64,000 nucleotides of DNA from Escherichia coli. GTDB lineage: Bacteria; Pseudomonadota; Gammaproteobacteria; Enterobacterales; Enterobacteriaceae. This document shows, piece by piece, positions 28,601 through 31,600 of the stretch. Within the stretch, counting starts at the first letter, position 1, and the number at the start of each line of letters is the position of its first letter. Position numbers: made by a program. The stretch lies in assembly GCF_022846255.1 (NCBI RefSeq), contig NZ_AP025682.1. One strand, 5' to 3'.

Positions 28601-31600
28601 TGTCTGCGGCGTCTGGGAATGCGCAAATGGAATAACCATTCAGTGGGTTATCGCCGTGGCGAAGCGCCAGAAAAGCCGCCGGGCCGTGGCAAAGGGAGAT
28701 AACAAAACGGTCATTTTTGATTGCCCACTGTAAAGCGGCAGCTACGTCCTGGCTTTCAGGTAAACCAATAAGTGCGCCATGACCACCAGGAACAAAGATT
28801 GCTGCATATTCGCTATCAGCGTTGAGGCTGGCGACAACATCCGCGAGTTTCTTCGGATTGCGGAACAACGATTTATGCTGCTCAAAGAATGGCATTACTT
28901 TTTCATCTTTGTGCGGCATAGCCCAGTATTCAAACTTGGTCAACAGGCCGGAAATGGTCGCCACTTCGAATTCGAAACCTGCAGCATGGAGATGATACAA
29001 CGGCAGCAACGTTTCAATCGGATGGTTACCGGTCGAGAACAGTTTTCCGTTATCGGTCGGCAAATAACGTTCGTCCGCGGCGATCACCAGAATTTTATGT
29101 TTACCGCGATACGGTTTTGGATAGTCCACGCCATCAAGATCAGAGACAGGACTGGTATATTGGCTAAGCGAATATTCTGAAGGGAAGAATGCATTATCTT
29201 CAGCAATATCGACCTGCGGATTTTTACTTGTTTGAACAGTCATAGTGTATTCCTTATTGTTGCTTAGTTAGGGTAGTCACTATATTTGCGACTGAGCTGG
29301 TCGCTATTTTTAACCAGGCTGGAAAATTGAGTCAATATATCGAAAGCGGTAGTCGGCGGGTGTAAGTATGTAATGATGATGCTGCACTGGTGTTGAATAT
29401 TATTCACGCCAAATTTTCCTTATTGAGTAACGTCGTCGCAAGTGGCCTCAATGATTTTAGACCATTATCAGAGGTACGGGGTGGCGGGGAGAGATTTAGT
29501 GCTGTGGAATATTGTGGTGCTGATGAATATTTATATCGCGGATTGGTAGAGAAAAAGCTTATTTCATGCACTATTTTTGCAAATATTTCTATATGGGAAG
29601 CGTGTTTGTTACGGATTAATTCATAAAGAAATGCATTTGGGTGTTAGCTTGAAGAGTAGCTGGTTGATGTTATTGTGCCAGGAGGGGCAGGGTAAGGTGC
29701 TGTATCGATATGCTTCGGCAATTGCGTGTGCCGCAGATGGAGATGAAATGCCAATAAAAAAGCCTGAGTTCGATGAGGGACGAACTCAGGCTAGTGTTAA
29801 GTTTTACAGTAACACGCCGCAGCGAGTTGGCTGATTAGAACTGGTAGACGATACCAACTGCAAACTGGTCATCAGCTGCTGCGCCAGTAATGGCGGCGTC
29901 ATCTTTATCCAGCATGTTGAATTTGTATGCAGTATAAACGTTCATGTTCTTATTAAAGTAGTACCAGGTACCAACTTCAATGTAGTTCACACGGTCAGCG
30001 TCAACATATCTATGTCCAGGTACCCCTTTGATATCTTTACCTTTAGAGTACACATAACCTAAGGACGGACGCAGACCAAAGTCGAATTGATACTGAACAA
30101 CCGCTTCAAAGTTCTGGGTTTCATTGATAAGTTGATCACGCATTATTGTATTGCCTTCTCGATCGGCAACACCTGTATCAATAGAACCCGGAGTCATATT
30201 ACGAGTTTCGCCGTACATTACAGCTGCGTAGACATTGTTCGCGTCATACTTTGCAGCCAATGACCACAGTTCAGCATTTGAACCGTTTCCATCGGCAACT
30301 TGATCGTTGGTGCGATCAGATTTGCTATATGCACCAACGATACCAAAACCATTGATGTTATAGTCTACAGACAACGCATAGCCGTCACCATTTTGTTTCT
30401 TAGTGCTACGGTTGCTGTTTTTGCCTTGGTACTGAATCGCAAAATCAAGACCATCAACCAGGCCAAAGAAATCATAGTTACGGTAGGTTGCAACACCGTT
30501 GGTACGACCATTCATGAAGTTGTCAGCGGAAGCCCAGGAATCGCCACCCCATTCAACTAACATATCGGTATAAGCTGCGGCATCATAAGCAACACCGTAG
30601 TTACGGCCATAGTCAAATGATCCTAACTCGTTATATTTCAAACCGGCGAAGGTTAAACGGGTTTTTTCCTGGTTTTCACCTTCGGGCTTGCTGGCGTCGA
30701 GGTTGTATTCAAACTGACCAAAACCAGTCAGTTCGCTGGTGATTTGGGTTTCACCTTTAACACCGAAACGAGCATAGGAGGTATCTTCGTTTTCGCTGTT
30801 ATTATCATCAGTATTTGACCAGATGCGTTCGCCAACCATCTTGCCGTAGAAATCAACTTTATTGCCATCTTTATTATAAATTTCAGCCGCATTTGCTGCG
30901 CCAGCAACTAATAACGCCGGGACCAGCATTGCCAGAACTTTTCTTTTCATTATGTATTCCCTTGTGATTATAATCTTCATGAATATATCAATAAGTGCCG
31001 TTATCCAAAAAAAAGCACATTTGGATACTATTCTATGAAGTTCATTTTATTTTAAGGATTACATGTAACAAATGTATTTAAAAGATTTCAAAATGTTTCT
31101 AATCTATTTAATATAATTCAGGATTATGAATTCTGAATATAAACATTCATGAAGATTATAAATGTATATCAATAAGTTATGAGTTGAACTGAAAGATAGG
31201 GAGTATCAATGATCGTTGCGCTAAACGGCTGGTGTGATCACGCGCACATTAATGAAGGCATAAAAAAAAGCCGGCATCATGCCGGCCCAAAAAATATAAA
31301 CAAGACGATAAAAGGCTAATAACGGAGGCATCATGACACAGAATAATAAAAAGGTATAATTGTAATCAGTGCTAATATATTGATTGAATGAATTAATAAA
31401 GCCGATATCAAAGATAAATAAAATCGCTCAAAACGATTTTTCTTGTATTCACTGCCGTTGCGCAAAAATTATCTATTTGTTCAAAAAATGATTGAGTCTT
31501 GACTGGCTCATTCAATGTGGAAAAATGTGATTTTTATCACATAATAGTACTAAGTCTGAATTTTCCGGGTTATCTCAAAATGGAATACGGTTCGACAAAG

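What the first reader, a model, noticed from the sequence alone, without database searches (positions are those of the whole stretch)
31261..31360. Orphan intrinsic terminator on the minus strand upstream of yedR: candidate sRNA
A textbook terminator (GCCGGC-AUGAU-GCCGGC followed by U8) reads on the minus strand at 31261-31287, yet the nearest minus-strand CDS (yedS) starts about 300 bp further downstream and has its own terminator elsewhere. That implies a short independent transcript. I recall the RseX sRNA mapping between yedR and yedS, so this is likely it, but I cannot confirm its sequence from memory. The stretch upstream of the hairpin contains CCUCC, as expected for an sRNA that pairs with ribosome-binding sites.
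Basis: partly seen in the sequence, partly recalled or inferred. Interest (0 to 1): 0.35.

Follow-up and report, generated by a model that had tools for sequence, protein, structure and literature searches.

The report
Known small RNA gene rseX
The "orphan terminator" is the 3' end of rseX, a well-described 91-nt Hfq-dependent small RNA of Escherichia coli that lowers outer-membrane porin synthesis, so the finding is correct but already known.

Summary
On the minus strand, GCCGGC-AUGAU-GCCGGC (31286-31270) is followed by U8 (31269-31262). The next minus-strand gene, the porin yedS, starts 311 nt further on (ATG at 30950).

Rfam RF01401 (rseX) matches 31263-31352 (-) over its full length at 99 bits (gathering score 50). 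The K-12 reference annotates rseX (b4603, 91 nt) in the same place, between drpB (formerly yedR) and yedS, and the window copy (31262-31352) is identical at 90 of 91 nt. A published RseX northern probe maps here with one mismatch.

The single difference from K-12 lies inside the "CCUCC" (K-12 has CUUCC). This loop is the most variable part of the RNA across Escherichia, and the two alleles split E. coli genomes roughly evenly (2218 against 2305). The invariant core (nt 30-50, GUUAUUAGCCUUUUAUCGUCU) gives the best predicted pairing with the ompA and ompC ribosome-binding regions.

Verdict: already known, ordinary, low interest.

The parts
31262..31352 (-). rseX small RNA gene, 91 nt (5' end at 31352, 3' end at 31262)
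   Evidence: Rfam RF01401 at 99 bits, full model. It aligns 90/91 to K-12 b4603. The ends are transferred from the K-12 annotation. The 5' end was mapped by 5' RACE in K-12 according to PMC8313858.
31270..31286 (-). Terminator hairpin (RNA nt 67-83): GCCGGC(A)-UGA-(U)GCCGGC
   Evidence: The stem is paired in 16 of 16 homologs, with one compensatory G-C to A-U change in Citrobacter. The loop AUGAU is invariant within Escherichia. The terminator loop was shown to be needed for fepA repression (PMC11979758).
31262..31269 (-). U8 tail (nt 84-91): 3' end of the transcript and presumed Hfq proximal-face binding site
   Evidence: Sequence. There are 6-8 U in all homologs. The role in Hfq binding is inferred from established knowledge of Hfq-dependent sRNAs.
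31289..31300 (-). U-rich stretch UUUAUAUUUUUU (nt 53-64) directly before the terminator hairpin
   Evidence: Sequence, conserved within Escherichia. Together with the hairpin and the U tail it has the layout of the usual Hfq-binding module (inference). RseX+52, which consists of nt 52-91, is enough to repress fepA.
31303..31323 (-). Invariant core GUUAUUAGCCUUUUAUCGUCU (nt 30-50): predicted seed for ompC (nt 30-43) and ompA (nt 37-50)
   Evidence: Invariant or nearly so in 15 of 16 homologs. Local duplex prediction gives ompC -15..+1 at dG -16.1 and ompA -23..-7 at dG -17.2, each matched by only 1-3% of shuffles. Among 47 background initiation regions in the window, 4 reach -16.1.
31315..31339 (-). 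Hairpin 1 of the Rfam model (nt 14-38), a weak A-U/G-U stem
   Evidence: Rfam structure. 95% of cells are paired, but 4 sequences break the G21-U32 pair without compensation. The whole-RNA fold is no better than shuffles (z = -0.86).
31324..31328 (-). CCUCC in the hairpin-1 loop (nt 25-29). C26 (31327) is the only difference from K-12, which has CUUCC.
   Evidence: The C26 allele is in 2218 E. coli genomes and the U26 allele in 2305. Other Escherichia have ACCCC, ACUCC, ACCGC or CUUAC here.
31344..31352 (-). 5' region 1 (nt 1-9), the published pairing region for fimB and ihfB
   Evidence: Coordinates [1,9] come from the supplement of PMC8313858. This region is identical to K-12 in the window.
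31359..31364 (-). Putative -10 hexamer TACAAT of the rseX promoter (-12 to -7). The -35 is poor (best TTCAAT, 18-bp spacer).
   Evidence: Read from the sequence. T-12, A-11 and T-7 are conserved across Escherichia. A sigma-70 promoter supported by 5' RACE is reported for K-12. The hexamer assignment is my inference, and the consensus scan did not list it.

Best explanation
The feature is rseX, an independently transcribed 91-nt Hfq-dependent small RNA. Transcription starts at 31352 from a weak sigma-70 promoter in AT-rich, H-NS-silenced DNA and stops at the GC-rich hairpin plus U8 at 31262. The U-rich stretch, terminator hairpin and U tail form the Hfq-binding module. The single-stranded, invariant core (nt 30-50, containing GCCUU) pairs with the Shine-Dalgarno and start regions of the ompA and ompC mRNAs, which blocks translation and lowers the mRNA levels. 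The 5' end (nt 1-9) pairs with fimB and ihfB. [quoted passage not shown] Shown here: identity, position, strand, terminator, conservation pattern, allele frequencies and predicted pairing. Taken from K-12 experiments in the literature: the transcript ends, Hfq dependence, the targets and H-NS silencing. Inferred: that this strain's C26 allele behaves in the same way.
For: Rfam RF01401 matches 31263-31352 (-) at 99 bits against a gathering score of 50, E = 1.9e-12, over the full model. K-12 annotates ncRNA rseX b4603 at 2033649-2033739 between drpB and yedS. The window is 90/91 identical, with the same gene order of yedS, rseX, drpB, yedJ and dcm. A published RseX northern probe maps at 31315-31341 with one mismatch and is antisense to the minus strand. 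The terminator is listed on the minus strand only, and its stem is paired in 16/16 homologs with one compensatory change. The locus is present in 4879 of 5426 complete E. coli genomes and in other Escherichia species and Citrobacter amalonaticus, all above the Rfam gathering score. The invariant core gives the best local pairing to the ompA and ompC initiation regions, matched by only 1-3% of shuffles. G+C is 27-35% over 30900-31650, which fits H-NS binding. [quoted passage not shown] The terminator loop represses fepA (PMC11979758). rseX is described as a 91-nt RNA beside drpB (PMC7648144).
Against: There are no expression data for this strain. In wild-type K-12 the RNA is not detectable. [quoted passage not shown] My background test is modest, since 4 of 47 unrelated initiation regions score as well as ompC. 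The promoter has a poor -35 and was not found by the consensus scan. The whole-RNA fold is no more stable than shuffles. About 10% of E. coli genomes lack the gene, so it is dispensable.
Confidence: 0.96

Rival explanations
1. The gene is rseX, but in nature it is an essentially silent, decaying accessory gene. It is kept off by H-NS, is often lost or damaged, and its regulatory effects appear only on artificial overexpression.
For: No transcript is seen in wild-type K-12 in any growth phase. The surroundings are AT-rich. 547 of 5426 genomes lack the locus, and in the one such genome examined an IS1-associated deletion removes yedS, rseX and drpB. Strain P276M has a 7-nt deletion inside the core and scores only 59.8 bits. 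162 records fall in the 80-90% identity band. Earlier work classed rseX as variable, with several independent losses (PMC3318445).
Against: The core at nt 30-50 and the terminator loop are invariant from E. coli to E. albertii, and the core also in Citrobacter, while flanking DNA and the hairpin-1 loop diverge. That pattern indicates purifying selection on the RNA. The U26 55-mer is 100% identical in 1720 genomes.
Confidence: 0.15
2. The hairpin is an attenuator in a long 5' leader of the porin gene yedS. Transcription from 31352 would either stop at 31262 or read through into yedS, so the short RNA would be a by-product of cis regulation.
For: It is on the same strand as yedS and 311 nt upstream of it, with no gene in between. 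Other sRNA genes also sit beside porin genes (established knowledge, for example micF-ompC and micC-ompN).
Against: The terminator is strong (7-9 bp stem, U8). rseX stays intact in K-12, where yedS is a pseudogene. RseX acts in trans from plasmids on ompA, fimB, ihfB and fepA. Promoter-like sites lie between the terminator and yedS at 31137-31110 and 31071-31044. No alternative anti-terminator pairing was evident, and RseX has no predicted pairing with the yedS initiation region (dG -7.1, worse than shuffles).
Confidence: 0.03
3. The region encodes a small protein: either the 37-aa minus-strand ORF at 31334-31221 that starts inside RseX, or the 36-aa plus-strand ORF at 31209-31319.
For: Both ORFs exist. 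The plus-strand ORF is preceded by GGGAG five bases before its ATG.
Against: The minus-strand ORF has no Shine-Dalgarno sequence and runs 39 nt past the transcript's 3' end, so the terminated RNA carries no stop codon. For the plus-strand ORF, the differences between the window and K-12 are two non-synonymous and one synonymous (by hand). Neither ORF is annotated in K-12.
Confidence: 0.01

Closest known systems
RseX (rseX, b4603; Rfam RF01401) of E. coli K-12
   Same: 90 of 91 nt are identical. It sits at the same position and on the same strand relative to drpB (yedR) and yedS, and it has the same terminator, U tail, 5' region 1 and core.
   Different: There is one substitution, U26 to C, in the hairpin-1 loop (CUUCC to CCUCC). 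The downstream yedS is an intact porin gene here and a pseudogene in K-12.
Other Hfq-dependent porin-repressing sRNAs of enterobacteria (MicA, MicC, MicF, RybB, OmrA/B)
   Same: All are short independent transcripts with a Rho-independent terminator and U tail, and they act by imperfect pairing at or near the ribosome-binding site of outer-membrane protein mRNAs. MicA also targets ompA and MicC also targets ompC (established knowledge; comparison).
   Different: There is no sequence similarity. RseX is not known to be controlled by sigma-E or EnvZ/OmpR. It is silenced by H-NS/StpA and is undetectable in wild type. Its distribution is narrow: Escherichia plus one Citrobacter among 100,044 species genomes matched the core pattern used.
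SdsR and ArrS (terminator-loop-dependent repression of fepA)
   Same: The 3' terminator region alone (RseX+52) represses fepA through stem-loop II-b of the long fepA 5'UTR, and this needs Hfq and RNase E. The terminator and its loop are identical in the window.
   Different: These are unrelated sequences. RseX differs from SdsR and ArrS in its response to the compensatory stem mutant of fepA.

Membership tests
Rfam RF01401 rseX (Hfq-binding RNA) | Covariance-model score at or above the curated gathering score, over the full model length | tested here: met
   99.0 bits against a gathering score of 50, model positions 1-94 of 94, E = 1.9e-12, minus strand 31263-31352.
Rfam RF01401 rseX (Hfq-binding RNA) | Sequence identity to the experimentally defined K-12 gene b4603 | tested here: met
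   90/91 identical. The published probe for nt 12-38 maps with 1 mismatch.
Rfam RF01401 rseX (Hfq-binding RNA) | Conserved genomic context: between drpB (yedR) and yedS, divergent from drpB, on the same strand as yedS | tested here: met
   The window order yedS(-) rseX(-) drpB(+) yedJ(+) dcm(+) mirrors K-12. The same holds in divergent E. coli strains.
Rfam RF01401 rseX (Hfq-binding RNA) | Discrete approximately 91-nt transcript with a 5' end at +1 and a 3' end in the U tract | not testable with these tools
   Only literature for K-12 is available: 5' RACE, and an approximately 91-nt northern band in the hns deletion strain. No paper in the searchable library holds both 'RseX' and 'Term-seq'.
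Hfq-dependent trans-acting base-pairing sRNAs | Rho-independent terminator hairpin preceded by a U-rich stretch and followed by a 3' poly-U tail (Hfq-binding module) | tested here: met
   UUUAUAUUUUUU at 31300-31289, hairpin at 31286-31270, U8 at 31269-31262. The stem is paired in 16/16 homologs.
Hfq-dependent trans-acting base-pairing sRNAs | Physical binding to Hfq and dependence of regulation on Hfq | not testable with these tools
   Reported for K-12 RseX.
Hfq-dependent trans-acting base-pairing sRNAs | A conserved single-stranded seed complementary to its target mRNAs | tested here: inconclusive
   The invariant core nt 30-50 gives the best predicted duplexes with the ompA and ompC initiation regions, matched by 1-3% of shuffles. 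However, 4 of 47 unrelated initiation regions score as well as ompC, and the ompA site has never been mapped experimentally.

The most novel reading that the evidence does not exclude
The U26-to-C polymorphism turns the hairpin-1 loop into GCCUCC and creates a second, stronger anti-Shine-Dalgarno site. Predicted pairing of nt 24-37 with the ompA ribosome-binding site improves from -12.8 to -15.5 kcal/mol. The two alleles split E. coli almost evenly (2218 against 2305 genomes). The most novel reading not excluded is therefore that natural rseX alleles differ in target strength or range. This would be within-species variation in an sRNA seed, and it might track whether the neighbouring porin gene yedS is intact.
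Probability: 0.1. Interest if true: 0.3.

Novelty: already known. Interest (0 to 1): 0.05.

Why it matters
It matters little as a discovery. RseX was described in 2006, is in Rfam and is annotated in the K-12 reference genome. Two practical points come out of the check. First, the PGAP annotations of every non-K-12 E. coli record listed or fetched in my searches carry no feature here, so a naive reader of those records sees an "orphan" terminator. Second, the conservation pattern points to nt 30-50, not the eye-catching CCUCC, as the region to mutate when the still-unmapped RseX-ompA and RseX-ompC pairing is finally tested.

Tried and rejected
1. Unrestricted duplex folding of RseX against the whole ompA and ompC leaders gave long, loop-ridden duplexes no better than shuffles (18-51% of shuffles as good). 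I replaced it with 14-nt windows against positions -30 to +20.

2. The whole-RNA fold is not more stable than shuffles (z = -0.86). Apart from the terminator, the RNA is AU-rich and largely unstructured, so folding energy says nothing either way.

3. The primary paper (Douchin et al. 2006) and the review with the predicted ompA pairing (Guillier et al. 2006) are not held. I could therefore not confirm that my predicted site at nt 37-50 equals the published "region 5". I know only that region 1 is nt 1-9 and a second listed functional region, presumably region 8, is nt 63-77.

4. A literature search for 'RseX' together with 'Term-seq' found no paper.

5. yedS and drpB were tested as possible local targets and rejected: dG -7.1 and -9.7, no better than shuffles.

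6. I considered a bidirectional terminator and rejected it, because there is no T run after the hairpin on the plus strand.

7. The consensus promoter scan did not find the rseX promoter. The -10 TACAAT assignment was made by hand.

Full report
**Observation.** On the minus strand the sequence reads ...UUUAUAUUUUUUGG GCCGGC AUGAU GCCGGC UUUUUUUU A. The stem arms lie at 31286-31281 and 31275-31270, the loop at 31280-31276, and the U8 tract at 31269-31262. The terminator scan reports the site on the minus strand with 9 pairs, 6 of them G-C. On the plus strand the hairpin is followed by CCAAAAAAT, so it can terminate only minus-strand transcription. The scan is permissive (6 sites in 3 kb against 2.6 +/- 1.5 expected), so the pattern alone is suggestive and not proof. 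The next minus-strand gene is an intact 371-aa OmpC/OmpF-family porin at 29835-30950, which begins 311 nt beyond the U tract. It has its own terminator-like site at 29792-29761. CCUCC is present at 31328-31324.

**Identity.** A scan of the whole window against Rfam gives a full-length match to RF01401 (rseX, Hfq-binding RNA) at 31263-31352 on the minus strand: 99.0 bits against a gathering score of 50, E = 1.9e-12.
- The K-12 MG1655 reference annotates ncRNA rseX (b4603) at 2033649-2033739, between drpB (b1963, formerly yedR) and the yedS pseudogene, followed by yedJ and dcm.
- The window has the same genes in mirror orientation: yedS (-), rseX (-), drpB (+, 31580-31882, NCBIfam NF038392), yedJ (+) and dcm (+).
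- Aligning K-12 rseX with 50-nt flanks to the window places the 91-nt gene at 31262-31352 with a single difference.
- The RseX northern probe printed in the supplement of PMC8313858 maps once in the window, at 31315-31341, with one mismatch. Zero matches are expected by chance.
- DsrA lies 8.3 kb away at 39688-39774. From memory, this matches the K-12 map.

**What is conserved.** The 146-nt gene-plus-promoter segment is present in 4879 of 5426 complete E. coli genomes. A scan of one genome from each of 100,044 species with the conserved core pattern found only Escherichia (E. albertii, E. whittamii, two unnamed species, E. coli) and one Citrobacter amalonaticus. All of these pass the Rfam gathering score. 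Alignments of 10 and 16 copies show three conserved blocks:
- nt 12-23;
- nt 30-58, in particular GUUAUUAGCCUUUUAUCGUCU;
- the terminator, including its loop AUGAU.

The 5' nt 6-11 and the hairpin-1 loop (nt 24-29) vary. The terminator stem is paired in every sequence and shows one compensatory G-C to A-U change in Citrobacter. Hairpin 1 of the Rfam model is made of A-U and G-U pairs, and four sequences break one pair without compensation. The RNA as a whole folds no better than shuffled sequence, as expected for an AU-rich sRNA with one strong hairpin.

**The CCUCC argument.** The one difference from K-12 is C in place of U at RNA nt 26 (31327), so K-12 reads CUUCC. I used 55-mers centred on this base, so that every 28-base seed word must contain it. 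The C allele is found in 2218 genomes and the U allele in 2305. Other Escherichia have ACCCC, ACUCC, ACCGC or CUUAC at this position. The pentamer is therefore not a defining feature of the RNA.

I then scored 14-nt windows of RseX against positions -30 to +20 of ompA and ompC.
- For ompC, the best site is nt 30-43 (GUUAUUAGCCUUUU) against -15 to +1: 14 consecutive pairs spanning the Shine-Dalgarno sequence up to the first base of the start codon, dG -16.1, matched by 1% of shuffles.
- For ompA, the best site is nt 37-50 (GCCUUUUAUCGUCU) against -23 to -7, dG -17.2, matched by 1-3% of shuffles.
- Both sites use the invariant core, with GCCUU as the anti-Shine-Dalgarno element.
- The loop site (nt 24-37) is second best for ompA. 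The window's C26 strengthens it from -12.8 to -15.5.

These are predictions only. Among 47 other initiation regions taken from the window, 4 reach -16.1 and 1 reaches -17.2, and PMC8313858 states that the RseX-ompA site has not been mapped. That paper says the predicted ompA site corresponds to its "region 5". Region 1 is nt 1-9 and a second listed functional region, presumably region 8, is nt 63-77, so a mid-molecule site is plausible. I could not confirm the exact coordinates, because the 2006 papers are not held.

**How it works.** The published K-12 work gives the following picture.
- RseX was found as a multicopy suppressor of RseP essentiality and represses ompA and ompC in an Hfq-dependent way.
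- 5' RACE supports a sigma-70 promoter. The RNA is undetectable in wild type but appears as an approximately 91-nt band, plus an approximately 75-nt form, when H-NS is absent. StpA acts as a back-up silencer.
- The 5' nt 1-9 pair with fimB and ihfB.
- The 3' part alone (nt 52-91) represses fepA through its terminator loop and a distant stem-loop in the fepA leader. This needs Hfq and RNase E and apparently does not involve direct pairing.

In the window all of these regions are identical to K-12. The intergenic DNA has 27-35% G+C, which fits H-NS binding. By hand I place the -10 at TACAAT (31364-31359, positions -12 to -7). Its T-12, A-11 and T-7 are conserved across Escherichia. The -35 is poor, which fits a weak promoter, and the consensus scan did not list it.

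**Rivals.**
- A yedS leader or attenuator is unlikely. The terminator is strong, rseX is intact in K-12 where yedS is a pseudogene, RseX works in trans, promoter-like sites lie between it and yedS, and there is no predicted pairing with the yedS start region.
- The small ORFs overlapping the gene are unconvincing. The minus-strand one has no Shine-Dalgarno sequence and no stop codon within the transcript. The plus-strand one differs from K-12 by two non-synonymous changes and one synonymous change.
- A more serious qualification concerns biological importance. The gene is silent in the laboratory and absent from about 10% of genomes; in the one such genome examined, an IS1-associated deletion spans hchA' to yedJ'. 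It is also damaged in some strains, for example by a 7-nt core deletion in P276M, and it was earlier classed as variable, with several independent losses. Against pure decay, the core and the terminator loop are invariant across species while the flanks diverge.

**Verdict.** The feature is the known sRNA gene rseX and carries a common single-base allele. Novelty: already known. Interest: low.

Noticed in passing
window 29835-30950 (-): The porin gene at the yedS position is an intact 371-aa ORF. It is OmpF/OmpC/PhoE-like but scores below all three NCBIfam cut-offs. In K-12, yedS is annotated as a pseudogene. Across E. coli, PGAP names this gene either 'porin' or 'ompC', and the region diverges strongly.
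   Followed up: partly
window 31333-31360 (+): This is the best sigma-70-like match in the 3-kb region (ATGACA-16-TATAAT, 11 of 12). It lies on the opposite strand, back to back with the rseX promoter. Its -10 overlaps the rseX -10 (31359-31364) by 2 bp and its -35 lies inside rseX. It would fire away from rseX towards drpB, so it would not produce an antisense RNA. drpB has closer promoter-like sites at 31499-31545, and 75 bp upstream of the old GTG start suffices for drpB expression. It may be a bidirectional promoter pair, or a spurious promoter in H-NS-bound DNA.
   Followed up: partly
RefSeq E. coli records matched: The PGAP annotation shows no feature under rseX in any listed or fetched non-K-12 genome. 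Only NC_000913.3 carries the ncRNA feature. This annotation gap explains why the terminator looks 'orphan'.
   Followed up: partly
L019 (NZ_CP054161.1 3023208-3027617): In this genome an IS1 element sits between a truncated hchA and a truncated yedJ, and yedS, rseX and drpB are all missing. This accounts for at least some of the roughly 10% of E. coli genomes without rseX.
   Followed up: partly
L008 1552-1631 (E. coli P276M): This is a degenerate rseX allele: a 2-nt insertion in nt 14-16 and a 7-nt deletion inside the invariant core (UUAGCCUUUUAUCGUC becomes UUACCUU..CC). It scores 59.8 bits in Rfam. 162 records fall in the 80-90% identity band and may share it.
   Followed up: no
window 31209-31319 (+): A 36-aa ORF lies antisense to the 3' end of rseX and is preceded by GGGAG five bases before its ATG. 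Compared with K-12 it has two non-synonymous changes and one synonymous change, and it is not annotated in K-12. It is probably a chance ORF.
   Followed up: partly
window 39688-39774 (+); 21230-21302 (-); 22294-22380 (+): The DsrA sRNA (Rfam 102.5 bits) and two tRNA genes are also in the window.
   Followed up: no
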